Origin: an uncultured Parabacteroides sp.
GTDB taxonomy: Bacteria > Bacteroidota > Bacteroidia > Bacteroidales > Tannerellaceae
Direction: 5' to 3'
NCBI RefSeq assembly: GCF_947855115.1
Contig: NZ_CANTZW010000017.1
Location: forward strand, 13,355 to 77,354
DNA length: 64,000 nt
This document shows positions 15,557-45,469 of this stretch, in pieces (positions within the stretch are counted from its first letter, which is position 1; the number at the start of each line of letters is the position of its first letter). The translations under genes and the position numbers were made by a program. The notes under the pieces were generated by a model. The model searched no databases. It was given only the letters and a program-made list of their open reading frames with translations, and had not been told where the DNA came from.

Positions 15557-15574
15557 ATTAGTGGTTTTTGTATA

Positions 15575-16747: not shown

Positions 16748-16784
16748 GATGTTGCTGTTTTGAAATGGTATTATCAGATGGTGG

Positions 16785-16809
16785 GAGACGGGGCACGCCC
16801 CGTCTCTAC
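16785..16809 (-). repeat. REP-like GC-rich hairpin with GTAG foot
   Basis: Minus strand reads GTAGAGACGGGGC-GT-GCCCCGTCTC; perfect 10-bp stem between GH26 and GH130. Confidence 0.7.
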
Positions 16810-16848
16810 AACTGGATATGATGTGAGTTATTTGGTTTATGTGTGATG

Positions 16849-17980: not shown

Positions 17981-18045
17981 CAAATGTAAGAGGTCTTGTA
18001 TATATAATCTAGTATTATTTTATCAGATAACGATATTATATTAAT
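17981..18045 (-). promoter_or_regulatory. -7 promoter box and putative activator site of the mannan operon
   Basis: TACATTTG (17981-17988, minus); + strand TATTATTTTATC at 18013 and degenerate copy at 18034 (21-bp period); same layout as upstream of susC. Confidence 0.65.
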
Positions 18046-18103
18046 TTATCTTATTCTTGGTAATCATCTGGATTTTTTTAGATACAGACTGCGAACAGAT
18101 CAT

Positions 18104-18145
18104 GCACGAACCTAATGGATTCATAAAGAAACATTAGATCCGTGC
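18104..18145 (-). terminator. Hairpin at the end of the DUF6057/propeller cluster
   Basis: 14-bp stem GCACGGAUCUAAUG/CAUUAGGUUCGUGC pairs fully on the minus strand with two G-U; no clear U tract. Confidence 0.45.
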
Positions 18146-18169
18146 GCTACATTTTGTAAATGTTACTTT

Positions 18170-27334: not shown

Positions 27335-28530
27335 ATCTCTTCATCTTTATGGTTCGTATAATAAACACGTAACGGAGTGGAAAGAACCTTGATGAAGCCC
27401 TTAGCGTCTTCGGCGGTCCAACCTTTCTGCATCTCTCCGTACTCACCGAATTTCGTCTTCACCAAATCATCCTCAGACTCTACGCCAACGGTAGAGAAGG
27501 ACAACGGACGAAGCTCTAGGATGGCTGTACCGTTCACGTTGCGCTGAGATTCTTGCAACATCGCCTCGATATCGCGCATTACCGGTTCCAGATATTGGCT
27601 CTCGTGCAAGAACATACCATACCAGTTCGCTACCTGGTCTTTCCAGTATTGTTGCCATTTGCTCAACGTATATTTCTCCAAGAAGCGGTGTGCCCCGATA
27701 ATCAACATAGGAGCGGCAGCCTCGAAACCAACACGTCCCTTGATACCGATGATCGTATCACCTACGTGCATATCCCGACCGATACCGTAAGCGGCCCCGA
27801 TCTCCTCGATCTTCTGGATAGCGGCGATCTTATCCTCGAATACCTCACCGTTCACGGCATGAACCTCACCGTTCTTGAACTCAATGCGTAATTGCTCGCT
27901 ACCCGTCTTTTTCACTTGTTTCAAGTAAGCGCTCTCGGGCAATCCTTGTGCGGAATCAAGAATCTCACCACCGCAGATAGAGGTTCCCCAAAGACCTACG
28001 TTATAAGAATATTTCAACTTCGTGAAATCAGCCTCGAAACCATGCTCCTTCAAGTAGTTGATCTCAAACTCACGGCTCAAGGCCATGTCGCGGGTCAAGG
28101 TGATAATCTCCACGTTCGGAGCCAATACCAAGAAAGTCATATCGAAACGAATCTGGTCATTGCCCGCTCCGGTAGAACCATGGGCGATAGCGTCGGCACC
28201 GATCTCGTTTGCGTAGCGGGCGATTGCCAAGGCTTGGAAAATACGCTCGGAACTTACGGAGATAGGATATGTGCCATTACGCAGCACGTTCCCGAAAATC
28301 ATGTATTTCAAGCTCTTCTCGTAATATTCTTTCGTAACGTCGATCGTTACATATTTCGTGGCGCCTAGCTTATAGGCGTTCTCCTCGTTTTGCTTCAATT
28401 GTTCCTCACTAAAACCACCTGTGTTAGCGCAAGCAGCGTATACCTCGTATCCTTTTTCCTTGGCCAGATACATTACCGTGAAAGAGGTATCCAAACCTCC
28501 GCTGAACGCTACTACTACTTTCTTCTTCAT
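27331..28530 (-). CDS. argG: Argininosuccinate synthase
   Basis: AFSGGLDTS, AHGSTGAGNDQIRF, IGIKGRVGFEA. Confidence 0.95.
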   Translation of the reverse strand: MKKKVVVAFSGGLDTSFTVMYLAKEKGYEVYAACANTGGFSEEQLKQNEENAYKLGATKYVTIDVTKEYYEKSLKYMIFGNVLRNGTYPISVSSERIFQALAIARYANEIGADAIAHGSTGAGNDQIRFDMTFLVLAPNVEIITLTRDMALSREFEINYLKEHGFEADFTKLKYSYNVGLWGTSICGGEILDSAQGLPESAYLKQVKKTGSEQLRIEFKNGEVHAVNGEVFEDKIAAIQKIEEIGAAYGIGRDMHVGDTIIGIKGRVGFEAAAPMLIIGAHRFLEKYTLSKWQQYWKDQVANWYGMFLHESQYLEPVMRDIEAMLQESQRNVNGTAILELRPLSFSTVGVESEDDLVKTKFGEYGEMQKGWTAEDAKGFIKVLSTPLRVYYTNHKDEEI

Positions 28531-28568
28531 TGTTTCTTTATTTTATGTTGTTTTTCTATCGTATTAAT

Positions 28569-29162
28569 TTAATCTCTTTTAGCTTGGTCGCGGGCATCCC
28601 GTTCTCGTTGCGCGCGATGTGGATCGGCCGGGTCGAACAACATGGCTGTACAAATGCAATACCTACGCTCGGTACGCTCCAAGATATCATGGTTCACGCA
28701 ACCGTTGCAACCCCGCCAGAAAGCCTCGTCGTCCGTCAGATCTGCAAACGTGACCGGTACATATCCCAGCTCGGTATTCATCTTCATCACGGCGGCACCG
28801 GAGGTAAGGCTGAATATCTTCGCCTTCGGCCAGCGCATACGGGCAAGCTGGAAAGTCATGTCCTTGATGCGTTTGGCGATACCCAACCCCCGGAAATCCG
28901 GATGAACGATCAGGCCGGAGGTGGTTACATACTGCTTGTTCCCCCATGACTCGATATAGCTGAATCCGGCGAATACGTCTCCCGCCAAGGCGATCACCGC
29001 TTTTCCCTCTTTCATCTTCTGGACCACATACTCGTGTGTACGTTTGGCGATGCCTGTGCCCCGGACTTTAGCGGCAGACTCGATCGTTTCTAGGATCGTA
29101 TCTACATATACCTCGTGAGAGGCATCAGCGATCATAACATCAATCTCTGTTTCTTGTTCCAT
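28569..29162 (-). CDS. GNAT N-acetyltransferase, putative N-acetylglutamate synthase
   Basis: LIVHPDFRGLGIA acetyl-CoA motif; between argR and argG. Confidence 0.8.
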   Translation of the reverse strand: MEQETEIDVMIADASHEVYVDTILETIESAAKVRGTGIAKRTHEYVVQKMKEGKAVIALAGDVFAGFSYIESWGNKQYVTTSGLIVHPDFRGLGIAKRIKDMTFQLARMRWPKAKIFSLTSGAAVMKMNTELGYVPVTFADLTDDEAFWRGCNGCVNHDILERTERRYCICTAMLFDPADPHRAQRERDARDQAKRD

Positions 29163-29190
29163 TTTATCGTTTGTTCTTAATTTTTCCCTG

Positions 29191-29631
29191 TTATATGAAA
29201 TGTGATAAAGCGGCGATCACTTTCTCTTGGCTTACACCGTTGCGGGGGATCACCAAGATCGTATCGTCTCCGGCTATGGTAGCCAGTATCTCGTTGGGGG
29301 CATGCGTATCTATGTCCGAGGCGATCCCCATGGCGTAGCCCGGACGTGTTTTTACCACCGCCAAGTTGCCGGAAAACTCGATATTCGGCTTTTTTTTGCC
29401 TTCAGGTTGTGCTTGCTTGCTTATACTCGTTTCGGGAAGACGATATACATAGTCTCCGTTTCCGTCGTGTACCTTGGCTACTTTCAGTTGCTTGATGTCG
29501 CGGGATAGCGTAGCTTGCGTAACCGAGAATCCGCTATCTTCCAGTTCTTTAAGCAGCTCTTCTTGGTTACTTATCGCCTTCGTCCGTATAATACCGCAAA
29601 TGGCATCCAATCGTTCCTTCTTTGTACTCAT
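29191..29631 (-). CDS. argR: Arginine repressor
   Basis: NQEEL, TQATLSRDIKQL, ATIAGDDT. Confidence 0.95.
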   Translation of the reverse strand: MSTKKERLDAICGIIRTKAISNQEELLKELEDSGFSVTQATLSRDIKQLKVAKVHDGNGDYVYRLPETSISKQAQPEGKKKPNIEFSGNLAVVKTRPGYAMGIASDIDTHAPNEILATIAGDDTILVIPRNGVSQEKVIAALSHFI

Positions 29632-29633
29632 GT

Positions 29634-29690
29634 TGTATATTTATGCAAAACAGGCTGCAAATATAAAGAGTATTGTTGAATAAATATACA
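29634..29690 (-). promoter_or_regulatory. Two ARG-box-like sites flanking the arg operon -7 box
   Basis: TGTATATTTATGCA (29634-29647), TGAATAAATATACA (29677-29690), TATATTTG on minus strand (29658-29665). Confidence 0.7.
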
Positions 29691-30012
29691 ATTGAGGGCT
29701 TTTTTTTCTATTATGGATAGGAGGTTGCGGATTTTTTCGCTTAGCTTAAGTTCAATCTTCGTAAGTGTTCGGTGTTTTGTCGGTTTATATTCGTCTTCTA
29801 TCAGTTGTTGGAGGAGCGTGTGCCAAGTGGTGGAAGATCATCCAATAGTTGGGAGATGGTCGTGCAACGGATGTTGGATGATGAATGTCTTTAAATGAAA
29901 AGGCGAATACTTTCTGTAGAAAGAACGAAAAGGCATGATCGTTTTGAGCAAAATGGTAGTATCTTTGCGTTATAAAGAAGAGAGTATAGGGTTTAATTTC
30001 AAGTAAAAGGAT

Positions 30013-30804
30013 ATGGAAAAAATAGCAAGTTTATTCGTGGCCTTGCTTTTATTGGCAGGCTGTTCCAGCGTACCGTTGACAGGACGTAAGCAAATGCTGT
30101 TAGTTTCGGATCAAGAGGTGTTGTCGTCTAGCCTTACCCAATATAACGATTATATAAAGACGGCAAAGAAATCGACGAACGCAAGCAAGAGTGCCATGGT
30201 AGCCCGGGTCGGGCAGAAGATAGCTGCTGCCACGGAGGAATATTTGCGGGCGAACGGTATGGCGAATGAGGTGAAAAACTTCTCTTGGGAATTTAATTTG
30301 GTGGATGATCCGCAGGTGAACGCCTTCTGTATGCCGGGAGGCAAGATTGTGGTATACGAGGGGTTATTGCCTTTAGTCTCCTCGGACGATGAGTTGGCTG
30401 TGGTCGTCGGGCATGAGGTCGCCCATGCCGTGGCCAAGCATAGCAATGAGCGTATGAGCCAGCAGCTCATGGCCCAATATGGGGCGGCTATTTTAGGCGT
30501 GGCGGTAAGCAATAAGAGCGCGGCGGTACGGCAAGCGGCCAATGCGGTATATGGTGTGGGAGCACAGTACGGCGTAATGCTTCCATTTTCCCGCAAGCAC
30601 GAATCGGAAGCGGATTATATGGGTTTGGTATTCATGACCATGGCGGGATACAATCCGGACGTGGCGGTTAACTTCTGGAAAAAGATGTCTGCCGGAAAAA
30701 GTGGCTCTACACCGGAATTCATGAGTACGCATCCCAGTGATGCCACCCGTATAGCGGAAATACAAAAAGCTCTTCCCGCTATTAAAACCAAATACAAAAA
30801 ATAA
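30013..30804 (+). CDS. M48 family metallopeptidase, lipoprotein
   Basis: LAGC lipobox, NAFCMPGGKI, GHEVAH (HExxH), SRKHESEAD, THPS; -7 box TATCTTTG at 29960-29967. Confidence 0.9.
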   Translation: MEKIASLFVALLLLAGCSSVPLTGRKQMLLVSDQEVLSSSLTQYNDYIKTAKKSTNASKSAMVARVGQKIAAATEEYLRANGMANEVKNFSWEFNLVDDPQVNAFCMPGGKIVVYEGLLPLVSSDDELAVVVGHEVAHAVAKHSNERMSQQLMAQYGAAILGVAVSNKSAAVRQAANAVYGVGAQYGVMLPFSRKHESEADYMGLVFMTMAGYNPDVAVNFWKKMSAGKSGSTPEFMSTHPSDATRIAEIQKALPAIKTKYKK

Positions 30805-30852
30805 TTAACACTTACCAGCTGCTCACTTCCCGCATGCCGCAATTTTCAATTC

Positions 30853-32661: not shown

Positions 32662-32815
32662 GCCCGCGAATATAGGAAAAATGAACTAACCTCTTGAATT
32701 TTGGTTTATATATTATATTCATAGGAGAAATGACCAGTATTCATGTAATTGGGGCGATAAAGCCAATTATCGTTTCTCCTATATTTGCAAACACTGCTAT
32801 AATTTAAGATCATTT

Positions 32816-33649
32816 ATGAGAAAAACGATTATATCCTTTCTTCTTCTCTTGGTTTGCGCCATGGCCCACTCGCAGGTCTTGGCGAAAGGACCGGAGGAAA
32901 GTTATAATGCGGATAGTATTCGTGAGATTTTGGATAAGTCTCCTTATTTTACCTTATTCAAAGACAACTATTTCATCGGTGGAATCCCTGTCGGCAACAA
33001 GCCTACGGCGAGAAACTCCGATGTTAAATTTCAGTTGAGTATTGCTCAGCGTCTTACGAAAAGTAAACTCCCCTTTGATACCTATCTTTTCTTACAATAT
33101 ACGCAGAAGGCCTTTTGGAATGTTTTTCAAGAGTCTTTGCCGATGCGCGACTTAAATTTTAATCCGGGTATCGGTCTGGGGCATCTTATCGTACATAAGA
33201 ATAAATACATCGGGAAAGGTTATTTGATGGTCGAGCATGAGTCGAACGGGAAAGACAGCATCTTCTCCCGAAGCTGGAACAAGATTACCTTGGCGGCTGC
33301 CGTTTTACTGAATAAGAACTGGGAAGTGCAGTTCAAGGGCTGGATACCGATCGTAGACGGTAAGGAAAATAAAGACATCCTTAAGTACAATGGTATATTC
33401 CAAGTCGCTGCCAATTACCGGACAAACAACAGGCGCTTTAATTGCGGGGTTATCTTGACCAAACGAAAGACTTGGTTCAGTTTCAATACCCAGATTGAAT
33501 TGAGCTATAAATTTAATAATAACGAGAACCAATATTTCTTCTTGCAATATTATAATGGTTACGGAGAGAACCTTCTGGAATACAACCAATACAAAAGTAT
33601 GCTACGGATCGGTTTTGTGATCAAGCCGCAAGATTTCAGTATTTATTGA
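32816..33649 (+). CDS. pldA: Outer membrane phospholipase A1
   Basis: KFQLS, YTQKAFW, MRDLNFNP, EHESNG catalytic motif, YYNGYGENLLEYN. Confidence 0.85.
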   Translation: MRKTIISFLLLLVCAMAHSQVLAKGPEESYNADSIREILDKSPYFTLFKDNYFIGGIPVGNKPTARNSDVKFQLSIAQRLTKSKLPFDTYLFLQYTQKAFWNVFQESLPMRDLNFNPGIGLGHLIVHKNKYIGKGYLMVEHESNGKDSIFSRSWNKITLAAAVLLNKNWEVQFKGWIPIVDGKENKDILKYNGIFQVAANYRTNNRRFNCGVILTKRKTWFSFNTQIELSYKFNNNENQYFFLQYYNGYGENLLEYNQYKSMLRIGFVIKPQDFSIY

Positions 33650-33782
33650 GAAATTCCGAGGTGAGGTGCCTTCTTCTTTTAGTATGTTTTGTAAAATTAG
33701 CTTAAAAAACATATCGTTTTTCTACTGTATCAAAAAGTTATTATTTCTACATTTGTAGCGTTTAATCCTAAATCAAGAAATT

Positions 33783-35210
33783 ATGTTAACAGCTATGATC
33801 GTTGTGTTCCTTGTAGGTTATTTAATGATCGCATTGGAACATCCTCTAAAGATAAATAAGGCAGGTACGGCTTTACTTATCGGTACGGTATTGTGGGTAA
33901 TGTATGCGTATGCGGCCCCGTTTTTCATTCCAAGGGCCTCGGCAGAGGAATTCAGCTTGTTCTTGGAGTCGTTTCCCTCGTTGGGTTCATTGACGTTCAA
34001 GGAGCAATGCCTTCATTTTGTCGTGGAGCACCAGGTATTGAGCAGTATCGGGGAGATTGCCGAGACACTTATATTCCTCATCGGTGCGATGATAACCGTG
34101 GAGTTGATCGATGCCCATGGCGGTTTCATGTTTATCACGAATCATATTACCACGAAGAAAAAGAAAAAATTGCTGGCGCTGATTGCCGTGATCACGTTCT
34201 TTATGTCGGCCGTATTGGATAACCTCACGACCTCGATCGTCATGATCATGTTGATCCGTAAGTTGCTCGGGAACTATAAAGAGCGATGGGTATTCGGCAG
34301 TATCATCATTATAGCGGCTAATAGCGGTGGCGCTTGGTCGCCGATCGGCGATGTTACAACGATCATGCTTTGGGTAAGGGGAAACATATCCACTTCGTCT
34401 ACGATCCCGCATTTGATCTTGCCGAGTATCGTATCGGCATTGATCCCGATCTTGATCGCTATGCGCTTCCTACATGGAAACGTAACGCCTCCCAGCGCCT
34501 TCTCGCAATTGGAGGCAGACAACGAGTTATTGAAGAAGCTGGAAGACAAGGAGAAATTATCTATTTTGATAATAGGCGTGTTATGCTTGCTGTTTGTTCC
34601 TGTATTCAAAACGGTTACCCATCTTCCCCCGTTTATGGGAATCTTGATGGGAGTGGGTGTCCTCTGGTTCTATACAGAGATGATGTATGCCCGTAAGCCG
34701 ATTGATGAAGATTTGAAGTTGCGTTTGTCTAAAGTCGTTCGCCGTATAGATGGGGCGACCCTGTTGTTTTTCCTCGGAATCCTTCTGGCGGTGGATGCCT
34801 TGCGTTGCAGCGGCGTATTATCGGATTTCGCATATTGGCTGGATGATACAGTAGGCAACGTATATGCGGTGAACCTGATTGTCGGCGCTTTGTCGTCGAT
34901 CGTAGATAATGTGCCGCTGGTAGCGGGGGCTATCGGTATGTATCCGGTCGCTACGGATGCGATGGTGGCTGCGGCGACTGATCCGGCTTATATGGCGAAC
35001 TTTATGCAAGACGGTATTTTTTGGCAGTTCTTGGCCTATTGCGCCGGGGTGGGAGGCAGTATGTTGATCATCGGTTCTGCGGCCGGGGTAGTTGTCATGG
35101 GCTTGGAACGGATCAATTTTATTTGGTACTTGAAGAATATTTCCTTGATGGCTTTGGCGGGATATCTGTCTGGCGCAGCGGTATATATTCTTCAGAATAT
35201 ACTTATTTGA
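33783..35210 (+). CDS. NhaD-like ion transporter (IT superfamily)
   Basis: SAVLDNLTT, AANSGGAWSPIGDVTT, SSIVDNVPLV, GGSMLIIGSAAG. Confidence 0.85.
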   Translation: MLTAMIVVFLVGYLMIALEHPLKINKAGTALLIGTVLWVMYAYAAPFFIPRASAEEFSLFLESFPSLGSLTFKEQCLHFVVEHQVLSSIGEIAETLIFLIGAMITVELIDAHGGFMFITNHITTKKKKKLLALIAVITFFMSAVLDNLTTSIVMIMLIRKLLGNYKERWVFGSIIIIAANSGGAWSPIGDVTTIMLWVRGNISTSSTIPHLILPSIVSALIPILIAMRFLHGNVTPPSAFSQLEADNELLKKLEDKEKLSILIIGVLCLLFVPVFKTVTHLPPFMGILMGVGVLWFYTEMMYARKPIDEDLKLRLSKVVRRIDGATLLFFLGILLAVDALRCSGVLSDFAYWLDDTVGNVYAVNLIVGALSSIVDNVPLVAGAIGMYPVATDAMVAAATDPAYMANFMQDGIFWQFLAYCAGVGGSMLIIGSAAGVVVMGLERINFIWYLKNISLMALAGYLSGAAVYILQNILI

Positions 35211-35213
35211 ATT

Positions 35214-36053
35214 ATGTTATTAATTGCGGATAGTGGCTCGACAAAGACGGAATGGTGCTTGGCAGATCAAGGCAAGCCTGTCCGGACGGTCGTGACAGCT
35301 GGTACCAATCCCTATTTCCAGACCAAGGAAGGGATTGCGGGTGAGATCCGGGATGTATTGCTGCCTGCATTGAAAGGAGAGCGGATCGATGCCGTCTACT
35401 TTTATGGAGCTGGCTGTGCCTTCCCGGAGAAGAACCGGATCGTGGAGGAGGCGATCACATCTTATATACCAGCTCCTATTGAGGTGTATAGCGACTTGAT
35501 GGCGGCAGCTCGTGCCTTATGCGGAACTAGTCCGGGAATCGCTTGTATACTGGGAACGGGATCGAATTCTTGCCTGTATGACGGAGTGGAGATAACGGAG
35601 CACATCTCTCCTTTGGGATTCATTCTGGGGGATGAAGGCAGCGGTGCCGTACTAGGGAAACTATTGGTAGGGGATTGCTTGAAACGTCAGTTGCCGGAGC
35701 CTCTGGTTCGAAAGTTTATGGACCAGTATGAGTTGACTCCCGCCTTATTGCTGGAGCGGGTGTATAAACAGCCTTTCCCGAATCGCTTCTTGGCTACTTT
35801 ATCCCGTTTCTTGTTGGAGAATATCACGGAGCAACCGATCTATAATCTGGTCTATAATAGTTTTCGTAGTTTTTTCCTCCGTAATGTGGCGCTATATCCG
35901 GGGGCTGATACGTACCCGATTCATTTTGTAGGCTCTATCGCTTATTATTATCAGGAGGTATTGAAAGCGGCGGCCTTATCTTTGGACTTAGAAGTCGGTA
36001 CTGTTGTGCAGGCTCCCATGGACGGACTGATCCGATATCATTTTACAAACTAA
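35214..36053 (+). CDS. BadF/BadG-type sugar kinase, probable N-acetylmuramic acid/GlcNAc kinase
   Basis: IADSGSTKT, ILGTGSN, LGDEGSG; directly upstream of murQ. Confidence 0.8.
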   Translation: MLLIADSGSTKTEWCLADQGKPVRTVVTAGTNPYFQTKEGIAGEIRDVLLPALKGERIDAVYFYGAGCAFPEKNRIVEEAITSYIPAPIEVYSDLMAAARALCGTSPGIACILGTGSNSCLYDGVEITEHISPLGFILGDEGSGAVLGKLLVGDCLKRQLPEPLVRKFMDQYELTPALLLERVYKQPFPNRFLATLSRFLLENITEQPIYNLVYNSFRSFFLRNVALYPGADTYPIHFVGSIAYYYQEVLKAAALSLDLEVGTVVQAPMDGLIRYHFTN

Positions 36054-36065
36054 AACGAGAGCATT

Positions 36066-36896
36066 ATGGCATTCCAAAAGATAACCGAGTCGGAGTCGTT
36101 GTACGATAATCTGGACCAGATGTCTGTCCGGGAGTTGCTGGAAGGTATCAATAACGAAGACCGGAAAGTGGCGATCGCCGTTGGTAGGGAGATCCCGGAG
36201 ATCGAGAAGCTGGTTACCCGTATTGTGGAGCGGATGCGAAGGGGCGGTCGCCTCTTCTATATCGGGGCGGGTACGAGTGGTCGCTTGGGGGTTTTAGACG
36301 CTTCCGAGATACCTCCCACGTTCGGCATACCGAATACCTTGGTGATCGGTTTGATCGCCGGCGGTGACCGGGCGCTCCGGAATCCTGTTGAGTCGGCAGA
36401 AGACGATCCGGATAAAGCTTGGGAAGAACTTCAACAGTATCATATTAATATAAACGATACCTTGGTGGGGATCGCTGCCTCGGGTACTACTCCCTATGTG
36501 ATCGGCGCTCTCCGTAAGGCACGCTTAGAGGGTATCTTGACGGCCTCTATCTCCTGTAACCCGGATTCGCCGATGGCGGCTGAGGCAGAGATCGCCATCG
36601 AGCCGGTCGTAGGCCCGGAGTTCGTCAGCGGGAGTACGAGGATGAAGAGCGGCACGGCTCAGAAAATGGTGCTGAATATGATCACGACTTCCGTGATGAT
36701 CAAGCTTGGCCGGGTAAAAGGGAATCGGATGGTGAATATGCAACTGACCAATCAAAAGCTGGTAGACCGTGGTACCCATATGATCATGGAAGAACTTCAT
36801 CTGGATTATGAACAGAGCAAAAACCTCCTGCTCTTGCATGGCTCTGTCCGGGAGGCGATTGATTCTTATCACCGCGAATGGCGGCTGAATCAATAA
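36066..36896 (+). CDS. murQ: N-acetylmuramic acid 6-phosphate etherase
   Basis: GAGTSGRLGVLDASE, AVESAED-like SAEDD, GPEFVSGSTRMKSGTAQK, NQKL. Confidence 0.93.
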   Translation: MAFQKITESESLYDNLDQMSVRELLEGINNEDRKVAIAVGREIPEIEKLVTRIVERMRRGGRLFYIGAGTSGRLGVLDASEIPPTFGIPNTLVIGLIAGGDRALRNPVESAEDDPDKAWEELQQYHININDTLVGIAASGTTPYVIGALRKARLEGILTASISCNPDSPMAAEAEIAIEPVVGPEFVSGSTRMKSGTAQKMVLNMITTSVMIKLGRVKGNRMVNMQLTNQKLVDRGTHMIMEELHLDYEQSKNLLLLHGSVREAIDSYHREWRLNQ

Positions 36897-36960
36897 AGCG
36901 TTGTGCCTTGCGGTAAGTTTTCGTATATTTGCGGCTTAAAACTATTTAATAATCCGTACG

Positions 36961-37602
36961 ATGAATTTTATTTCTAAACTATTTAAGAAGAACGTGTCCG
37001 AGACGGAAGAGGCCGGCAAGGGGTCCGTGGAGGAGTTCGTATCTTTAATCCGTGTATATTATCAGGCTGTTATGGCCGTGAACTTGGGTATCACCAATTT
37101 GAACATGCTTGCTGATATGGCTTTGTTCAAGCGTATGCTGAAGATACCGACCCAGAACAACAAATTGGGGGTTGCCGAGAAATCCCGTGTGCGCAAGGTA
37201 TTGATGGATGATTACGGATTGAGTGAGGCTTTCTTCAAGGAGATCGACAGCTCCGTGAAGAAGAACTGCAAGAACCAGAATGATATCAAGACGTATTTCT
37301 TCATGTTCCAAGGTTTCTGCAATGATTTGTTCAACCTGCTAGGTAACCTGATGCAATGGAAATTCCGCTTCTCTATGCTGGTGAAGAAGTTGTTATATAA
37401 TATGACGACAAAGACGGTTCATGAGATCTTGACCAAATCCGAATGGAAAGACATTAGTGTGCAGAAGGCCGCATGGAGCGTGCGTAAGTATGCCGAGAAG
37501 TTGGGATACTCCGAGCAATGGATCACGGATTTCGTGTATAATGTCGTGCTTCTGGCGAAAGAGGATCAGAAGAAGGAACTTAAGAAGAACAAGGAGTCAT
37601 GA
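36961..37602 (+). CDS. Hypothetical protein, predicted helical
   Basis: 213-aa ORF with -7 box TATATTTG at 36924-36931; ATGA overlap with next gene; no motif recognised. Confidence 0.75.
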   Translation: MNFISKLFKKNVSETEEAGKGSVEEFVSLIRVYYQAVMAVNLGITNLNMLADMALFKRMLKIPTQNNKLGVAEKSRVRKVLMDDYGLSEAFFKEIDSSVKKNCKNQNDIKTYFFMFQGFCNDLFNLLGNLMQWKFRFSMLVKKLLYNMTTKTVHEILTKSEWKDISVQKAAWSVRKYAEKLGYSEQWITDFVYNVVLLAKEDQKKELKKNKES

Positions 37603-38177
37603 CCACTGAATTGCATCCGCTGGGCTTTTTCCTCCCGGAGAACGCTAGATTGCTGATGTTGGGAAGTTTCCCTCCACCCCGGGTGCGTTGGTCGATGAAT
37701 TTCTATTACCCGAATATTCAGAATGACATGTGGCGTATCCTTGGTTTGATTTTCTATGGAAACAAGGATGCGTTCTTACGAGACAAGAAGGCGTTCAGCG
37801 AGGAGAAAGCGAAGGCTTTTTGCCGGGAAAAAGGAATCGGGATCGGCGATACCGCCATGGAAGTGATTCGCTTGAAGGCGAACGCCTCCGATAAGTTTCT
37901 TGAGGTAGTACGACCGATCGATCTGGAAAAGGTATTGTCTCAAATACCGGAATGCGTGGCGATCGTGGTAACCGGACAGAAAGCGATGGATATCCTTCTC
38001 TCCGTATTGCCCGGCACGGAGGAGCCGAAAGTTGGTTCTTTCACGGAGTTCACTTGTTTGGGAAGGCAGATGAAACTGTTCCGTATGCCTTCTTCCTCCC
38101 GTGCCTACCCGAAACCCCTAGAGGAGAAAGCCGCTGTTTACCGGGGGATGTTTGAGATGTTGGGGATGGTGGTGTAA
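37599..38177 (+). CDS. Uracil-DNA glycosylase superfamily protein
   Basis: LGSFPP, FYYPN..NDMW, MPSSS motifs. Confidence 0.8.
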   Translation: MTTELHPLGFFLPENARLLMLGSFPPPRVRWSMNFYYPNIQNDMWRILGLIFYGNKDAFLRDKKAFSEEKAKAFCREKGIGIGDTAMEVIRLKANASDKFLEVVRPIDLEKVLSQIPECVAIVVTGQKAMDILLSVLPGTEEPKVGSFTEFTCLGRQMKLFRMPSSSRAYPKPLEEKAAVYRGMFEMLGMVV

Positions 38178-38236
38178 GATAAATATTCTTATGGGAGATG
38201 AGAGAAGATGAGATATCTTTTGGGAATAAAAAATAA

Positions 38237-38265
38237 AGGGCAAGCCATCTGTTATGGTTTGCCCT
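38237..38265. terminator. Bidirectional terminator
   Basis: Stem AGGGCAAGCCAT/ATGGTTTGCCCT between convergent genes, A run on the left. Confidence 0.7.
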
Positions 38266-38285
38266 CCTTGCTTTATGGTTTCAAT

Positions 38286-39161
38286 TTATTCTTTTACTTT
38301 GAATGCCCAGAAAGTAGCCTCGCCCCATTGTGCCGTACCAGAGGCGGCATAGGTTAAGACAAGGTTTTTGTCGTTCAAGAGCATGATATCGAACTCCGTT
38401 GGTTTATAGCCGTTTCCGTTGATCATGTAAGGGAACAAAATCGCCCCTTCGGATGTGTATAACTTGCCGATTTCCCAAGATTCATTGGCCGTCATGTCAA
38501 AGGAGAAAGTACCTTCGTTGATTGTTTTAGACCCTGTATTCTTCACGATTTTCTTTCCGCTTAGGATAAAAGTCATGTAAGCGTCCGGGGTTTCCTCTCC
38601 TGTGGCTGAAACTTTTAGGCCCTCTAATTGTCCGGTAAGATCTGCGGGTGCGCAAGTCCACCAGATGCCGTTCTTGTTCGTAATGAAATCTTCGGCGCTA
38701 GAAGCGGCTTTATAGCCAAGGTTACCCCAGCAGCCTCCTAGAACCTCGGAGTCGTATGTCCAGACCTTCTCTCCATCTCCGCAGAGATATGCCCATGCAG
38801 GGTCTACGTCTACGTAAGTTGTGATAGTAAAAGTCTTTTGCACAGAGGTAATACTACCATCTTGGTTGATGGTGCGGATCGTAAACGTCTGCGACTCATC
38901 TCCTCCGGGGGTCAAGTCGAACGATCCGCTTGTCCCCGAGGTCAGAATATTCCCTGAAGGATCAAGGATCTGCACGATTGTGGATGGATTTGTAGCGTAC
39001 GTAAATTTATTCTGGCCTTCTACCGTTTGCGTCAGAGTAGCGGCTTGTTCCAATTGCGCTTCGGTCATGCTCACCGCAATGATGCCTTCTTCCTCTATCG
39101 TAGGATCGCAAGCGGTAAAGAACATTGCGAGTAGCGGTATAACTATACTATATTTCTTCAT
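38286..39161 (-). CDS. Lipoprotein in SusE-like position (putative surface glycan-binding protein)
   Basis: FTAC lipobox followed by acidic DPTIEEE; directly after susD; Trp/Tyr-rich. Confidence 0.75.
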   Translation of the reverse strand: MKKYSIVIPLLAMFFTACDPTIEEEGIIAVSMTEAQLEQAATLTQTVEGQNKFTYATNPSTIVQILDPSGNILTSGTSGSFDLTPGGDESQTFTIRTINQDGSITSVQKTFTITTYVDVDPAWAYLCGDGEKVWTYDSEVLGGCWGNLGYKAASSAEDFITNKNGIWWTCAPADLTGQLEGLKVSATGEETPDAYMTFILSGKKIVKNTGSKTINEGTFSFDMTANESWEIGKLYTSEGAILFPYMINGNGYKPTEFDIMLLNDKNLVLTYAASGTAQWGEATFWAFKVKE

Positions 39162-39199
39162 GATTTTCTATTTAAAAGTTTGACTTTGTTGAAATCGTT

Positions 39200-40960
39200 T
39201 TACCAGCGGTTGTATTGGCTGTCCGAACCTTCCCAACCAGCATTCTGGACGATATTACCGTTTGACATATCCACCTCACTTTCCGGTATCTTGAAGAATC
39301 CGGCGGTAGCGTTATATCGGGTAGCGTAACCACCTCCGTGGGCTTTGTTAGAATCCTCTTGACCATTGGTGTAAATTTTCACGTTGGTTTGTTTTTCCAA
39401 TGCGGCGGCAGCTATGTGCCAGCGACGGATATCATTCCAGCGGATACTCTCAAATGCGAGTTCCCAACGACGTTCGTTTTGCAAGGCTTGGAGTGAGTAA
39501 GACGAAATTGGGCTCAAGCCGGCTCTCTCACGAACCCGGTTGATTCCATCCGTGTTCTCTTTCAACTCAGATTGCATTAGTAATACATCGGCGAAACGGA
39601 TAAGAACGAGATCGTGGATATTGTTTAACTGTAAGTTCTCTGACCCCGATGCCCAGCCATCGGTCCCATACATCAGGTTCTCGAAGCATACAGAGTATGT
39701 ATCACCGTTTTTTGCGGCAACAGGAAGCCATTTCTTGGAGAGGTATCCTGTCTCTTGGATGTACTCACCTCCTCCTCCAAGTGCCCATCCTTGTTCTGTC
39801 CAGGAGGTACAATCCGAAATGGAGGCATCGCGACGTTTGTCGTTAGGCTCAGAGTTTTTCCAGTCATTTATGAGATTTGGGGCAACAGGTCCGGCTCCCC
39901 AACCTTGGCCAAAGGGAAACGATTCGGCTACACCAGCCATACCACGTACGCCAAAGTGCAGGGCGAAGTTATTCGCATACCCGATGCTTGTGCTCCAGTC
40001 TGCTAATTTGTTGTATTTGATAGCGAACAATGTCTCTGGATTTACGGCGTTATCATCTTCTACCCATTTCAGGCCCTGTCCGCTAGTATAATCATAATCT
40101 TCTACCGTAAACCGATTTGTATAAGCCCAAAGATTGCGGAAATCCGACGTAACCAATGAGTATCCTGAATTGTTTACGCAATCATCGATGTAGCTGATTA
40201 CTTGATCTTTCGTCAGAGTGGAACCATCGGGCAAAGCCACGGAAGTCAAAGGTGAGTAAGTGGTACTGGTAAGTGCAGCCAAGTCCTCTCCATTACAATA
40301 CATACCTGTATAGAATAACCAAGCACGGGCTAGCATGGCCTCGGCGGTGTATTTATCGACATGCCCATCTGTCTTGCGAGTGTCGGGCATTATTTCTGCG
40401 GCATCACGTAAGTCTTGCAGGATTTGTCCCCATAGCTCAGCGGCGGTCGGTTGGCTTGGCTCTACGGATTGTGAGGTGATTGTCAGAGGGACACACCCAT
40501 ACATGGAAGCTAACTCATAATAGTAGAAAGCACGAAGGAATTTCGCTTCTCCTTCAATCTGGTTCTTGTCGGATTCAGCCAATTCGATATTTCCGATACC
40601 ATCCAATAAAGAGTTCGCACGGTTGATACCCTGGTAACGGTCTTTCCAGAATTGTTGGGTCATGTCCTGCTTGGAGTTCATCAACATATCCAGAGATTGC
40701 ATATGCAAGTCGTTCGGGCCTCCGCCTCCTAAACAATCGTCGCTAGCCAACATGGCTGCATAAAGGAAAGAGCACTCCGGCGTGGCAGACACTTGGTTCA
40801 AGTTCTGATAGATACCGGCTAACGCTTGTGTGGCATCCTCGGCCGTAATGGGAAAGTTCTCACTACTTTTTGTTACGTAATCCTCGGCATCCAGCGTACA
40901 AGAGGTGATTCCACCCATGATCGAAGCTGCGATACCGATTAAATATATTGTTTTTTTCAT
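39200..40960 (-). CDS. RagB/SusD family lipoprotein
   Basis: TSC lipobox, LASDD, YQGINRAN, EAKFLRAFYYYEL, LIRFADVLL, ERRWELAFESIRWNDIRRW; start placed at MKKTI. Confidence 0.95.
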   Translation of the reverse strand: MKKTIYLIGIAASIMGGITSCTLDAEDYVTKSSENFPITAEDATQALAGIYQNLNQVSATPECSFLYAAMLASDDCLGGGGPNDLHMQSLDMLMNSKQDMTQQFWKDRYQGINRANSLLDGIGNIELAESDKNQIEGEAKFLRAFYYYELASMYGCVPLTITSQSVEPSQPTAAELWGQILQDLRDAAEIMPDTRKTDGHVDKYTAEAMLARAWLFYTGMYCNGEDLAALTSTTYSPLTSVALPDGSTLTKDQVISYIDDCVNNSGYSLVTSDFRNLWAYTNRFTVEDYDYTSGQGLKWVEDDNAVNPETLFAIKYNKLADWSTSIGYANNFALHFGVRGMAGVAESFPFGQGWGAGPVAPNLINDWKNSEPNDKRRDASISDCTSWTEQGWALGGGGEYIQETGYLSKKWLPVAAKNGDTYSVCFENLMYGTDGWASGSENLQLNNIHDLVLIRFADVLLMQSELKENTDGINRVRERAGLSPISSYSLQALQNERRWELAFESIRWNDIRRWHIAAAALEKQTNVKIYTNGQEDSNKAHGGGYATRYNATAGFFKIPESEVDMSNGNIVQNAGWEGSDSQYNRW

Positions 40961-40975
40961 CTTGATAATCAATTA

Positions 40976-43900
40976 TTAGAATTTGACATTAACACCTACC
41001 ATATAGGTTCTCGCTTGAGGGTAATTACCTACATCCACGCCTGTTACCCAGCTCTCTTTATCGTTGAGGGCGGTTCCACACTCAGGATCCATTCCCTTAT
41101 AGCCGGTGAATGTAAAGAGATTTTGAGCAGAGATGTACAAGCGAAGTTGCTGGAACTTACAGTTCTTCCATAAACGCTTGATATCATAACCTAATGTTAC
41201 GTTCTGGATGCGGAAATAATCTGCGTTGTCCACGTAAATATCGGAAATGTTGATATGGTTCACAGTGTTACCGGGCAACAGGATCGGGTATCGGTTGGAT
41301 GTTCCTTCACCATGCCAGTAATTGTAGACGTTGCTGCTATAGTTATCGAACTGTCCGTTACCAAATTTACGATATGTGTGGGCTACCTGCATACCGAACG
41401 CTCCGTAAGTAGAGATGTTCAAGTCGAAACCTTTCCAGCTAAAATCTAGATTTAGACCCATCGTGAGGTCCGGATGAGGATTACCTATTTCTGTCTTATC
41501 GTTGTCGTTGATCACGCCATCGCCATTGACATCGACGAATTTCAAGTCACCCGGAGCAATTGAGGTTCCTTGCAAGGAGTTGGCTGCGTCTCCTTTACAA
41601 TTCTGATCCAGATAAGCCTGTATGTCTGCTTCGTTTTGCATTACGCCATCGGTCTTATATCCCCAGAAGTAACCGATAGGGTGTCCTTCTTCCATGCGAG
41701 ACATATAGGTGGTTCCTTCGGATAAGAGGGCGTTACCTCCATTCACGTAATGGGTACCGTTATTGACTTCTGTTACCTCGTTCTTGTTATGTGCGAGGTT
41801 CAAACCGATTCCGTAGCTGAAGTCCGAACCTACCTCATCTCTCCAATTGAGGGCAAGCTCAATACCGGTGTTCTTTACCGTACCGGCGTTTGCAATCATA
41901 GAAGAGAAACCGTTGATTGAAGATACGGGTACATCTATTAGCAGATCTTTTGTTTTCTTGTTATACCAATCAAAGTTCGCACTTAACCGGCCACCTAAGA
42001 AACGTGCGTCTAAACCGATGTTTGTCTGCTCGGATGTTTCCCAAGTGATCTCGTTGTTAGGTAACAAGGAAGGATAAGCTCCTTGGGTTCCTCCATTTTT
42101 ATTGTTGTTGAAAGAATAAAGTCCCAAATCACCGAATGCGTATGTGGAGGCGTATTTGTATGCTCCAATATTCTCGTTACCATTTTGTCCCCAACTGGCG
42201 CGAACCTTCAAGAAATCCATCCAGTTTTTCGTGTTTTCCATCCAGCTCTCGTTACTTATCACCCAACCTGCGGAGAATGAAGGGAAGTAACCCCAACGAT
42301 GACCGCTGGAGAAATTAGAGGAACCATCGGCACGGACAATCGCACTAAACATATAAGTTTCCTTGAGGTCGTAGTTGATACGGCCGAAATAGGATAGGAT
42401 GGAGTGATCATCCGCAGGATATCCTCCCACTATACCAGCAGTACGACCGGAGAAGTTGTCGAAGTAAGCATGTGAGAAATCTCCGAAGATGCTGGTCGTG
42501 GCGTGTCCTTCGATGGTTTCCGACATATTATTACCTTCTCTGGAATACTCTGTACCGACCAATACGTCGAAGTGGTTCTCTTTGATGTCGAAAGCGTAGC
42601 TCAATGTATGCGTCATACCCCAATTCCAACCGATGGTCATATTCTCATCCAGATAATCATCCGTATTCTGGTCGTTGTTATTATTTTTATAGATACCGTT
42701 GTATGCTTTGTAGAGGCTGGAGTTCTGTTTGTAGTAGACTTGGCCTTTATATTTCAAATCCTTTAATGGCTGTATCTCTATGTAACCGATGGCGCTAAGA
42801 TTGTGGTTCCGGCTTTTATTATTTCCACTGGTGGTATTTAGCAAGGTGTTCATCGGGTTATTAATATATTGGTTGAGTCCGAGTAATCCCATTGCTCCGG
42901 ATCCTTGCGCGATCAAGTCGTCATAGTCGAATAACTCTCCTTGGCTATTATATAGTGGAACCAATGGATTAGCTCCCATCATACTGTAGATGCTGTTGGA
43001 GTATTGGTTACCGATTTGGATACCTTGGTTGGATGTGTGCTGGTAATATACGTTCTCACCGAATTTGATGATATCCAAGTCATCCTTTTTCCAAAGGATA
43101 TGTTCGGAGTTTAAACGAATGGTGAAACGGCTGTAGTCAGATTTAACCGGACCACCGAAAATACCGTCTTGATACTGATAACCTACTCCGGTAGAGAACT
43201 TGGAGAGTTCGGAACCTCCGGTTATATTCACGGAATGAGAAGTGGTGATCGCATTTTTGTTGCGAAGTAACTCCAGCCAGTTCGTACCTGGATTAGAACC
43301 GTTTTGATAGGATTCCAGTAAATCTGCGTCTAGATATTGTGACCAATCGAAAGGTGCTATGCCAGCATTGAAGTTGATCTGGTCTTGAACAGCCATGTAT
43401 TCTTTGGCGGTAAGCATATCTGGCATCTTTACTACGTTCTGCCAACCGATGTTTCCATCATAAGATACTTGTACTTTTCCTTCTTTACCTTGTTTTGTGG
43501 TAACCAAGATAACACCATTTGCTGCACGGGCACCATAGATAGCGGAGGAAGCGGCATCTTTTAATACATCGATACGTTCGATATCGGCAGGATTCAGGGA
43601 GTTGATATCACCTCCGGCTACACCATCGATAACATAAATAGGAGCCGTATCTCCATTTGTACCGGCACCGCGGATGTTTACTTTGAATCCGTCACCCGGC
43701 TGACCGGAGGAAGCCACGATATTGACACCCGGGCTTTGATTTTGCAATGCGCTTAGTGGGCTGATCGTATTACGTTTTGCGACTTCATCTCCTTTTACCT
43801 CTACGGTAGCTCCTGTCACTAACTTTTTCTTTTGTACACCGTAACCTACTACCACAACCTCGTCCAGGCTCTGTGAGTCTTCTTTCAAGGTGATTTGTAA

Positions 43901-44221
43901 GTTGGATGTCTGGGCGGTTACAGGAATCTCTTGAGTCATGTAGCCGATGTAGGAGATCTCGATGATGGAGCCTGGGGCGGCTTCTAAGCTGAACTTTCCG
44001 TCCAAATCGGTTATCACTCCGTTTGTCGTTCCCTTTACGATAACATTGGCACCGATGACTTCCATTCCTGTTGCGTCTTTCACGATACCAGTGATTCTTT
44101 TTGTTTGTTGCATGACTTCCGTCGAAGTACTAGGGGCGGCTAATATTTGTGGTATGCCACCTAGCTGGAAAGCCATACATGCGCCTAAAAACAGCGTTGT
44201 TTTCTTAATTCTTGAATTCAT
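40976..44221 (-). CDS. SusC/RagA family TonB-dependent transporter
   Basis: LDEVVVVGYG, IERIDVLKDAASSAIYGARAANGVILVTTK, WETSEQTNIGLD, YPQARTYMVGVNVKF. Confidence 0.97.
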   Translation of the reverse strand: MNSRIKKTTLFLGACMAFQLGGIPQILAAPSTSTEVMQQTKRITGIVKDATGMEVIGANVIVKGTTNGVITDLDGKFSLEAAPGSIIEISYIGYMTQEIPVTAQTSNLQITLKEDSQSLDEVVVVGYGVQKKKLVTGATVEVKGDEVAKRNTISPLSALQNQSPGVNIVASSGQPGDGFKVNIRGAGTNGDTAPIYVIDGVAGGDINSLNPADIERIDVLKDAASSAIYGARAANGVILVTTKQGKEGKVQVSYDGNIGWQNVVKMPDMLTAKEYMAVQDQINFNAGIAPFDWSQYLDADLLESYQNGSNPGTNWLELLRNKNAITTSHSVNITGGSELSKFSTGVGYQYQDGIFGGPVKSDYSRFTIRLNSEHILWKKDDLDIIKFGENVYYQHTSNQGIQIGNQYSNSIYSMMGANPLVPLYNSQGELFDYDDLIAQGSGAMGLLGLNQYINNPMNTLLNTTSGNNKSRNHNLSAIGYIEIQPLKDLKYKGQVYYKQNSSLYKAYNGIYKNNNNDQNTDDYLDENMTIGWNWGMTHTLSYAFDIKENHFDVLVGTEYSREGNNMSETIEGHATTSIFGDFSHAYFDNFSGRTAGIVGGYPADDHSILSYFGRINYDLKETYMFSAIVRADGSSNFSSGHRWGYFPSFSAGWVISNESWMENTKNWMDFLKVRASWGQNGNENIGAYKYASTYAFGDLGLYSFNNNKNGGTQGAYPSLLPNNEITWETSEQTNIGLDARFLGGRLSANFDWYNKKTKDLLIDVPVSSINGFSSMIANAGTVKNTGIELALNWRDEVGSDFSYGIGLNLAHNKNEVTEVNNGTHYVNGGNALLSEGTTYMSRMEEGHPIGYFWGYKTDGVMQNEADIQAYLDQNCKGDAANSLQGTSIAPGDLKFVDVNGDGVINDNDKTEIGNPHPDLTMGLNLDFSWKGFDLNISTYGAFGMQVAHTYRKFGNGQFDNYSSNVYNYWHGEGTSNRYPILLPGNTVNHINISDIYVDNADYFRIQNVTLGYDIKRLWKNCKFQQLRLYISAQNLFTFTGYKGMDPECGTALNDKESWVTGVDVGNYPQARTYMVGVNVKF

Positions 44222-44371
44222 TATTTTTTACATTAAATCATATAAGGCTAAACTAAATTTTATTTACCCATTAGGGTCATTAGCGGCTAACTGCTAAAAA
44301 CATTAGATTTTAGGTTCCTTCCTCATAGGCGATTATTTTTAATTGTTAATATGAATTGTTAATTTTTGTCG

Positions 44372-44436
44372 CAAAATTACATCGGACCCCAAATGTGTTC
44401 AAATACTATTTTATCTAAGAATAATACTTTTTTGTT
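44372..44436 (-). promoter_or_regulatory. susC promoter and putative activator site
   Basis: TAATTTTG -7 (44372-44379), TTTG -33 candidate (44400-44403), + strand TACTATTTTATC at 44404 and degenerate copy at 44425. Confidence 0.65.
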
Positions 44437-45464: not shown

Positions 45465-45469
45465 GTTTA

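What the first reader, a model, noticed from the sequence alone, without database searches (positions are those of the whole stretch)
17981..44436. Shared operator-like motif links the mannan operon to a distant susC promoter (split PUL)
Seen: TATTATTTTATC (18013) and TACTATTTTATC (44404) both start exactly 32 bp from the first base of their -7 boxes (17981 and 44372). Each has a degenerate second copy 21 bp further on (18034, 44425). At susC the motif abuts a TTTG -33 candidate. Established: AraC-family activators commonly bind direct repeats about 21 bp apart next to the upstream promoter element. Inference: one regulator, most simply the cupin-AraC at 44586-45464, co-activates catabolic genes and the SusC/D importer about 26 kb away. 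The region is AT-rich, so chance is not excluded, but the identical spacing argues against it.
Basis: partly seen in the sequence, partly recalled or inferred. Interest (0 to 1): 0.72.

Follow-up and report, generated by a model that had tools for sequence, protein, structure and literature searches.

The report
Shared AraC operator links split mannan genes
Two promoters 26 kb apart in a Parabacteroides genome, one for a beta-mannan breakdown operon and one for a SusC/D importer, carry the same conserved two-part DNA site, which most likely lets one AraC-type regulator switch both on together.

Summary
On the minus strand, GATAAAATAATA (18024..18013) and GATAAAATAGTA (44415..44404) each lie 24 nt upstream of a TAnnTTTG -7 box. 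Each has a weaker copy 21 bp further upstream.

- **Genome scan.** GATAAAANNNTA-N24-TANNTTYG hits only these two promoters in the 4.44-Mb genome.
- **Conservation.** The 12+9+12 layout and its register hold in all seven Parabacteroides species with these genes, while the -33/-7 spacer diverges.
- **Cross-prediction.** A matrix built from the mannan promoters of six other species ranks the susC promoter second of 7,073 candidate boxes.
- **The regulator.** Orthologues of the AraC at 44586-45464 (61-71% identical in Phocaeicola, Prevotella, Marseilla, Dysgonomonas) often sit beside GH26-GH130-MFS, susC, GH36 or GH5 genes carrying the same site in the same register: 41 sites in 0.66 Mb, against 3 in the whole genome.
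- **The other AraC.** The one at 10329-11174 is missing from most of these species.
- **Fold.** The regulator is predicted to be a cupin plus an AraC DNA-binding domain.

DNA binding, the inducer and activation are untested. This is a new regulon of a familiar kind, with moderate interest.

The parts
18013..18024 (-). Proximal half-site of the mannan-operon operator (minus strand GATAAAATAATA)
   Evidence: Conserved as GAyAAAATAATA / GCCAAAAAAGTA / GATAACATTGTA in 7 species, always 24 nt before the -7 box.
18034..18045 (-). Distal half-site of the mannan-operon operator (minus strand ATTAATATAATA), 21 bp upstream of the proximal one
   Evidence: The ..AATAATA / ..AAATA ending stays in the same register in 7 species. 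Synteny with relatives begins at about this point.
18009..18012 (-). -33 position of the mannan promoter (CTAG here, TTAG in most relatives), a poor match to TTTG
17981..17988 (-). -7 box of the mannan promoter (TACATTTG)
   Evidence: Conserved as TAnnTT[TC]G in 7 species.
11523..17955 (-). Mannan catabolic operon: GH26 (16849-17955), GH130 (15575-16747), MFS_2 symporter (14168-15556), 2-epimerase (12975-14171), SASA-type esterase (11523-12944)
   Evidence: Pfam. ORFs. Start codon revised.
44404..44415 (-). Proximal half-site of the susC operator (minus strand GATAAAATAGTA)
   Evidence: Identical in 6 of 7 species; GCTAAAATACTA in the seventh.
44425..44436 (-). Distal half-site of the susC operator (minus strand AACAAAAAAGTA), 21 bp upstream
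   Evidence: The ..AAAGTA ending is conserved in register.
44400..44403 (-). -33 element TTTG of the susC promoter, directly abutting the proximal half-site
   Evidence: Invariant in 7 species.
44372..44379 (-). -7 box of the susC promoter (TAATTTTG), followed by a leader of about 145 nt
38286..44221 (-). susC (40976-44221), susD (39200-40972) and a 291-aa protein without a clear Pfam family (38286-39161)
44586..45464 (-). Candidate regulator: one-component AraC-family protein with an N-terminal cupin-like barrel and a C-terminal double-HTH domain
   Evidence: Pfam HTH_18 / HTH_AraC. PDB sequence hits to the DNA-binding domain. Invariant H31, H33, E37, H73. Model pLDDT 83, with fold matches to ToxT, Rns and the RhaR regulatory domain.
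45492..47690 (-). GH36 alpha-galactosidase just upstream of the AraC gene (28-nt gap). No operator in front of it in this genome.

Best explanation
The window comes from a Parabacteroides of the P. distasonis group. Its beta-mannan system is split into two parts. A cytoplasmic and periplasmic catabolic operon (GH26-GH130-symporter-epimerase-esterase) sits about 26 kb from a GH36-AraC-susC-susD cluster.

Both the GH26 promoter and the susC promoter carry one operator type. It consists of two 12-bp half-sites (consensus nnnAAAAWARTA; the proximal one is GATAAAATArTA) in direct repeat with a 9-bp spacer, so the centres are 21 bp apart. The proximal half-site ends exactly at the -33 position, 24 nt before the TAnnTTTG -7 box.

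The most likely mechanism is as follows. A dimer of the cupin-AraC protein encoded at 44586-45464 binds both half-sites on one face of the helix and contacts RNA polymerase at the -33 region, as class II AraC/XylS activators do. This would switch on import and catabolism together when a cytoplasmic manno-oligosaccharide signal is present, such as mannobiose or mannosyl-glucose.

Shown here: the sites, their register, their genome-wide uniqueness, their conservation, and their co-location with orthologues of this AraC in several families of Bacteroidales.

Inferred: binding, activation rather than repression, dimer stoichiometry, and the inducer.
For: **Uniqueness**
- GATAAAANNNTA-N24-TANNTTYG hits only these two promoters in G000, and only the same two in G001 and G079. 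Across 14 genomes there are 26 hits, against 1 for the reversed control pattern.
- The extra P. distasonis-like (G028) hit at 515 kb lies in front of a second GH36 alpha-galactosidase.

**Cross-prediction**
- A matrix from the mannan promoters of six other species, applied in register to 7,073 boxes, ranks the mannan promoter first (41.1 bits) and susC second (22.4). The next site scores 8.3.
- Without the register constraint, susC is 3rd of 8.87 million positions.

**Footprint**
- The majority-base fraction is 0.90-0.98 for the proximal half-site, 0.89-1.0 for the -33 element and 0.88-0.89 for the -7 box.
- It is 0.62-0.66 for the 20-nt spacer between them.

**21-bp register**
- It is conserved in 7 species.
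- In 37 sites from other genera, TA falls at offset 21 in 20, against a mean of 3.8 elsewhere (binomial p 5e-11, relatedness not removed).

**Regulator**
- AraC orthologues and GH26 orthologues co-occur: 6 of 6 against 1 of 72, Fisher p 2.7e-8.
- In Phocaeicola, Prevotella and Marseilla the orthologue sits directly upstream of GH26-GH130-MFS with the site 24 nt before the -7 box.
- There are 41 in-register sites in 23 of 80 orthologue loci (0.66 Mb), against 3 in the whole 4.44-Mb genome.
- A paralogous AraC elsewhere in the genome is followed by a near-twin operator.

**Architecture**
- It matches AraC-type DNA-binding domains in Bacteroides, which are predicted to bind direct repeats about 21 bp apart, for example 12-bp sites with a 9-bp spacer (PMC3878776).
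- The poor -33 element (CTAG/TTAG) at the mannan promoter fits dependence on an activator.
Against: - No experiment supports binding, induction or the transcription starts.
- The reciprocal test is weaker. The full susC-derived matrix does not place the mannan promoter in the top 15 genome-wide, and places it 7th with the spacer masked. In register it ranks 3rd, or 2nd with the spacer and -33 element masked.
- The distal half-sites are degenerate (9/12) and AT-rich.
- The seven Parabacteroides species form one clade, so the co-occurrence statistic overstates independence.
- Many Prevotella and Muribaculaceae orthologues of the AraC sit among housekeeping genes with no site nearby. Pattern searches in those genomes gave mostly chance-looking hits.
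- No site precedes GH36 or the AraC gene in this genome.
Confidence: 0.75

Rival explanations
1. The operator is real and shared, but a different protein binds it. Candidates are the paralogous cupin-AraC encoded at G000:C12:13341-14237, whose own adjacent site is very similar, or an unlinked factor.
For: The promoter beside the paralogue is the second-best match to the susC matrix at 22-24 bits. It shares GTATTATT...AATAGTATTTG with the susC site. Co-location is only circumstantial evidence for the AraC at 44586-45464.
Against: The GATAAAAT part is specific to mannan-linked sites in all genera, whereas the paralogue's site reads GCACAAAT. The paralogue and its RNA occur in 55 of 79 genus genomes regardless of mannan genes. 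The sites follow the orthologues of 44586-45464 instead.
Confidence: 0.1
2. The AraC at 44586-45464 binds the sites but represses, or both represses and activates (looping as in E. coli AraC), rather than simply activating.
For: AraC-family proteins can do both. The susC promoter already has a perfect, invariant TTTG -33 element and a good -7 box, so it may not need an activator.
Against: The sites lie wholly upstream of the -33 position and do not cover the -7 box or the start. The mannan promoter has a defective -33 element. No second distant operator for looping was found in the scans.
Confidence: 0.1
3. The resemblance is a chance or generic feature of AT-rich Bacteroidales promoters, such as an UP-like element, with no specific regulator.
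For: Both regions are AT-rich: 18% and 30% GC in the 60 nt upstream.
Against: Only 3 of 7,077 boxes in the genome carry the site in register, and 2 of those are these promoters. The reversed-pattern control gave 1 hit against 26. The site stays conserved while neighbouring bases diverge. It recurs in front of mannan genes in other families.
Confidence: 0.03

Closest known systems
Predicted operators of Bacteroides hybrid two-component systems, which have AraC-type DNA-binding domains (Ravcheev et al. 2013, PMC3878776)
   Same: Direct repeats with centres about 21 bp apart in front of susC and CAZyme operons. One described case is 12-bp sites with a 9-bp spacer, the layout seen here. Regulons can include distant genes.
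   Different: Here the candidate regulator is a soluble one-component cupin-AraC protein, not a membrane sensor kinase fusion. The sequence motif differs. Beta-mannan was not covered in that study.
Classical AraC/XylS class II activators of Enterobacteria (AraC, RhaS/RhaR, XylS, MelR); my knowledge of the literature
   Same: A cupin-type sugar-binding and dimerisation domain plus a double helix-turn-helix domain. Two half-sites in direct repeat, with the promoter-proximal one abutting or overlapping the upstream promoter hexamer. The fold search matches the RhaR regulatory domain and the AraC domains.
   Different: The promoter is the Bacteroidetes -33/-7 type. Sequence identity is low: 13-16% over the full-length fold matches and 21-30% in the DNA-binding domain. 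The N-terminal domain is not recognised by Pfam and keeps a full HxH..E..H set.
BoManPUL of Bacteroides ovatus (bacova_02087-97; PMC5217682)
   Same: Same gene content for galacto- and glucomannan use: GH26, GH36, GH130 phosphorylase, epimerase/isomerase, symporter and SusC/D.
   Different: BoManPUL is one contiguous locus controlled by a periplasm-sensing HTCS. Here the genes are split over 26 kb and the candidate regulator is a cytoplasmic AraC.
Beta-mannan PUL of Muricauda sp. MAR_2010_75, which has an AraC-type factor FG28_RS02325 (PMC9860051)
   Same: An AraC-type transcription factor encoded within a mannan-induced PUL.
   Different: No operator or regulon was defined there. Homology to the present AraC was not tested here.

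Membership tests
AraC/XylS family transcription factor (the protein at 44586-45464) | C-terminal domain with two helix-turn-helix motifs | tested here: met
   PF12833 E 5e-23 and PF00165 E 7e-16. PDB sequence hits to RamA, AraC, XylR and SoxS over residues about 180-285. Fold matches at rmsd 1.4-2.7 A.
AraC/XylS family transcription factor (the protein at 44586-45464) | N-terminal cupin-type regulatory and dimerisation domain | tested here: met
   No Pfam hit. The model (pLDDT 83) shows a beta-barrel followed by helices. Foldseek matches full-length ToxT, Rns and CsvR, the RhaR regulatory domain (TM 0.61-0.66) and the AraC dimerisation domain. H31, H33, E37 and H73 are invariant in 42 sequences. 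This rests on a prediction, not a solved structure.
AraC/XylS family transcription factor (the protein at 44586-45464) | Binds two half-sites about 21 bp apart next to the upstream promoter element and activates on ligand binding | not testable with these tools
   Only the DNA side is shown: conserved 12+9+12 repeats ending at the -33 position. Binding and ligand response need EMSA or footprinting and genetics.
Bacteroidetes housekeeping promoter (-33 TTTG / -7 TAnnTTTG; Bayley et al. 2000, from memory) | TAnnTTTG -7 box with TTTG 19-21 nt upstream | tested here: met
   The susC promoter has TTTG, 20 nt, then TAATTTTG. The mannan promoter has TACATTTG but CTAG/TTAG at the -33 position. Transcription starts could not be checked.
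Polysaccharide utilization locus (PUL) | Adjacent susC/susD pair with co-located, co-regulated CAZymes and a regulator | tested here: inconclusive
   susC/susD, GH36 and the AraC are adjacent. The GH26/GH130 genes lie 26 kb away, and 16-33 kb away in relatives. Co-regulation is inferred from the shared operator only.
Bacteroides fragilis-type mannan pathway operon (GH26 ManA, GH130 mannosylglucose phosphorylase, symporter, cellobiose 2-epimerase; Senoura 2011, from memory) | The four gene families in one operon | tested here: met
   Pfam GH26, GH130, MFS_2 and GlcNAc_2-epim in that order, 12975-17967. Enzyme activities were not tested.

The most novel reading that the evidence does not exclude
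The cupin-AraC is a Bacteroidales-wide cytoplasmic sensor of beta-manno-oligosaccharides, using a metal-bound cupin site. Its fixed-register operator holds together a regulon that has been scattered repeatedly: two loci 16-33 kb apart in Parabacteroides, a third member more than 400 kb away in the P. distasonis-like genome, and remote susC or esterase genes elsewhere. Its paralogue uses a near-identical operator to drive a genus-wide conserved small RNA, which could tie glycan sensing to post-transcriptional control or allow cross-talk at the susC promoter.
Probability: 0.25. Interest if true: 0.65.

Novelty: new member of a known kind. Interest (0 to 1): 0.5.

Why it matters
Regulation of beta-mannan use in gut Bacteroidales has so far been tied to a hybrid two-component sensor in B. 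ovatus. This analysis points to a second solution, widespread across several Bacteroidales families: a soluble AraC-type regulator with a simple, recognisable operator.

That operator allows regulon members to be predicted from sequence even when they are not adjacent. PUL predictors based on gene neighbourhood would miss such 'split' loci. The operator also gives concrete targets (two promoters, one protein) for testing how Parabacteroides responds to dietary gluco- and galactomannan.

I found no paper in the searchable library describing this regulator or its operator.

Tried and rejected
- **Second AraC (10329-11174) as the regulator: rejected.** Among the mannan-positive species its orthologue occurs only in G028. 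It is absent from G001, G079, G095, G012 and G093, which keep both operators.
- **Operator in front of GH36 or the AraC gene in this genome: none.** There is only a hairpin after guaB and a 28-nt gap.
- **Third in-register match (C45:8559, GATAAAATAGAA): judged chance.** It precedes a 255-aa secreted protein of unidentified family, an oxidoreductase-like ORF and a large outer-membrane-receptor-like ORF. It lacks the GTA ending and has no link to mannan.
- **G028 hit at 102178: judged chance.** No ORF follows it.
- **Rfam scans of the window and of the C12 region: nothing**.
- **Unconstrained susC-matrix scan:** it did not recover the mannan promoter in the top 15. Only the register-constrained or spacer-masked versions did.
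- **Prevotella and Muribaculaceae orthologues in housekeeping context:** no nearby site. A relaxed pattern search gave mostly implausible hits, apart from a remote susC in G112 and an AXE1 esterase in G114.
- **Literature searches:** no description of this regulator's operator.
Full report
**1. What is in the sequence**

All genes concerned are on the minus strand.

- **Cluster A.** GH26 (16849-17967, probable true start 17955), GH130 (15575-16747), MFS_2 symporter (14168-15556), 2-epimerase (12975-14171) and a SASA-type esterase (11523-12944). After a 348-bp gap comes an AraC-family gene (10329-11174).
- **Cluster B.** GH36 (45492-47690), an AraC-family gene (44586-45464), susC (40976-44221), susD (39200-40972) and a 291-aa protein (38286-39161).
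- **Between them.** Unrelated DUF6057 and beta-propeller genes.

Read on the minus strand, the two promoters are:

- Mannan: ATTAATATAATA-tcgttatct-GATAAAATAATA-ctag-(20 nt)-TACATTTG
- susC: AACAAAAAAGTA-ttattctta-GATAAAATAGTA-tttg-(20 nt)-TAATTTTG

**2. Is it more than chance?**

- **Pairwise null.** Random pairs of TAnnTTTG boxes from this genome share an in-register 11/12 match between -20 and -80 with p = 1.5e-4 (5e-4 for AT-rich upstream regions).
- **Exact motif.** GATAAAATARTA occurs 8 times in the 4.44-Mb genome. Only these two copies have a -7 box in register.
- **Loose motif.** Allowing one mismatch in ten fixed positions, with the box in register, matches 3 of 7,077 boxes, two of them these.
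- **Pattern search.** GATAAAANNNTA-N24-TANNTTYG hits exactly these two places in G000, and the same two promoters and nothing else in G001 and G079. Across 14 genomes it gave 26 hits, against 1 for the reversed control.

**3. Phylogenetic footprint**

The genus is Parabacteroides (record titles). GH26 orthologues (69-94% identity) exist in six other species of the genus. Orthologues of the AraC at 44586-45464 (70-95%) exist in those six plus one incomplete MAG.

In all seven species, counting G000, both promoters keep the same 12+9+12 layout, the same 24-nt distance to the -7 box and the same 21-bp register.

| Element | Majority-base fraction |
|---|---|
| Proximal half-site | 0.90-0.98 |
| -33 element | 0.89-1.0 |
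| -7 box | 0.88-0.89 |
| Distal half-site | 0.77-0.80 |
| 20-nt spacer between -33 and -7 | 0.62-0.66 |

Upstream of the mannan promoter, the neighbouring gene differs between species. Similarity begins at about the distal half-site.

**4. Cross-prediction**

- A matrix built only from the mannan promoters of the six other species was applied in register to 7,073 TAnnTT[TC]G boxes of G000. The mannan promoter ranks first (41.1 bits) and the susC promoter second (22.4). The next site scores 8.3.
- Without any register constraint, susC is third of 8.87 million positions, or second with the spacer masked.
- The reciprocal test is weaker. The susC matrix puts the mannan promoter third in register (second with the spacer and -33 element masked). 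Unconstrained, it is outside the top 15, or seventh with the spacer masked.
- The other high scorer for the susC matrix is a promoter directly after a paralogous AraC gene on contig C12.

**5. Which regulator?**

- **The AraC at 10329-11174.** Among the mannan-positive species it has an orthologue only in G028, so it cannot explain the conserved sites.
- **The AraC at 44586-45464.** It co-occurs with GH26 in 6 of 6 genomes, against 1 of 72 without GH26 (Fisher p 2.7e-8). The species form one clade, so this overstates independence.
- **The one exception, G033.** There the AraC is followed by the motif and an AXE1-type acetyl esterase.
- **Other genera.** This AraC has orthologues at 61-71% identity across Phocaeicola, Prevotella, Marseilla, Dysgonomonas, Muribaculaceae and others.
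  - In several, the gene lies directly upstream of GH26-GH130-MFS, with GH36 divergent.
  - There GTTAAAATAGTA or GATAAAATTGTA sits exactly 24 nt before the -7 box.
  - In the 80 orthologue loci (0.66 Mb) there are 41 in-register sites in 23 loci, against 3 in the whole G000 genome.
  - These sites precede GH26, susC, GH36, a GH5 and a 436-aa TIM-barrel hydrolase.
- **Blind genome-wide hits outside the AraC locus.**
  - A second GH36 at 515 kb in the P. distasonis-like genome G028; this gene is absent from G000.
  - A GH36 on another contig in P. coprocola.
  - A remote susC in a Dysgonomonadaceae genome, and an AXE1 esterase in a Prevotella.
- **21-bp repeat beyond Parabacteroides.** In 37 unique sites, TA in the register of the distal half-site occurs in 20, against a mean of 3.8 (maximum 11) at other offsets.

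**6. The protein**

- Pfam finds only the C-terminal AraC-type domain. PDB sequence hits cover residues about 180-285.
- An alignment of 42 orthologues shows invariant H31, H33, E37 and H73, a cupin-like metal motif.
- The AlphaFold model (pLDDT 83.3, pTM 0.70) has an N-terminal beta-barrel, three long helices and the DNA-binding domain.
- Foldseek matches full-length ToxT, Rns and CsvR, the RhaR regulatory domain (TM 0.61-0.66) and the AraC dimerisation domain.
- 'Cupin-AraC' is therefore reasonable, on predicted structure.

**7. Mechanism**

- The layout is two half-sites on one helix face, with the proximal one ending at the upstream promoter element. This is the standard arrangement for AraC/XylS activators (my knowledge).
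- It is also what was predicted for AraC-type domains of Bacteroides HTCS regulators: mean spacing 21 bp, including a case of 12-bp sites with a 9-bp spacer (PMC3878776).
- The defective -33 element of the mannan promoter fits activator dependence.
- A soluble regulator should sense a cytoplasmic product of the pathway, such as mannobiose or mannosyl-glucose. That is inference only.
- In Parabacteroides the two loci are 16-33 kb apart in every species examined, whereas in Phocaeicola they are contiguous. The shared operator would preserve co-regulation after the split.

**8. Comparison and novelty**

- B. ovatus uses an HTCS for an equivalent, contiguous locus (PMC5217682).
- A marine Muricauda mannan PUL contains an AraC-type factor with no defined operator (PMC9860051).
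- I found no paper describing this regulator or site.
- The result is a new regulon of a well-known regulatory type: solid and testable, but not surprising in kind.

**9. Limits**

- No binding, expression or transcription-start data are available.
- Many distant orthologues have no site nearby.
- The distal half-sites are weak.
- The statistics do not remove relatedness between genomes.

Noticed in passing
G000 contig C12:13341-14545 (outside the window; locus L044 1042-2250): A paralogous cupin-AraC (38% identical to 44586-45464) is followed by a near-twin operator (ATAGTATT-N13-AATAGTATTTGG, then 20 nt, then a TAyTTTTG box). This promoter drives no ORF. It drives a conserved RNA of about 160 nt with a 5' hairpin, an invariant 45-nt stretch, and a terminator hairpin showing compensatory changes. 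DNA matches occur in 55 of 79 Parabacteroides genomes, and there is no Rfam family. It is a candidate AraC-controlled small RNA.
   Followed up: partly
window 44222-44371 (minus strand): The susC leader is about 145 nt long, and parts of it are strongly conserved among species...ctaatgtttttagcagttaaccgctaatgaccc... and ...tttagtttagccttatatgatttaatgtaaaaaataATG. G012 has a shorter leader that keeps only the last block. This may be a post-transcriptional control region. There is no Rfam hit.
   Followed up: no
window 45465-45500 and 47691-47775 (minus strand): Similar short sequences precede the start codons of GH36 (..ctatcgactgtcaattgttaactaacATG) and of the AraC gene (..ctgttaattgtcgactatcaactaaacATG). 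An inverted repeat (gacaaatgacagt...actgccatttgtc) follows the guaB stop. No -7 box or operator is evident, so how GH36 and the AraC are transcribed is unclear.
   Followed up: no
G028:C1:515483-515526 (locus L156): In the P. distasonis-like complete genome, the operator pattern also precedes a second GH36 alpha-galactosidase more than 400 kb from the other two sites. This gene is absent from the window's genome.
   Followed up: partly
window 16849-17967: The annotated first ATG of GH26 (17967) is not conserved in relatives. The second ATG (17955, MKNTKLI..., a lipoprotein-like signal) is the likely start.
   Followed up: partly
window 10329-11174: A second AraC-family gene with an ExsA_N-like N-terminal domain lies at the end of the mannan operon. 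Its orthologues are found only in G028 and in a few large-genome species at 44-55% identity. Its target is unknown.
   Followed up: partly
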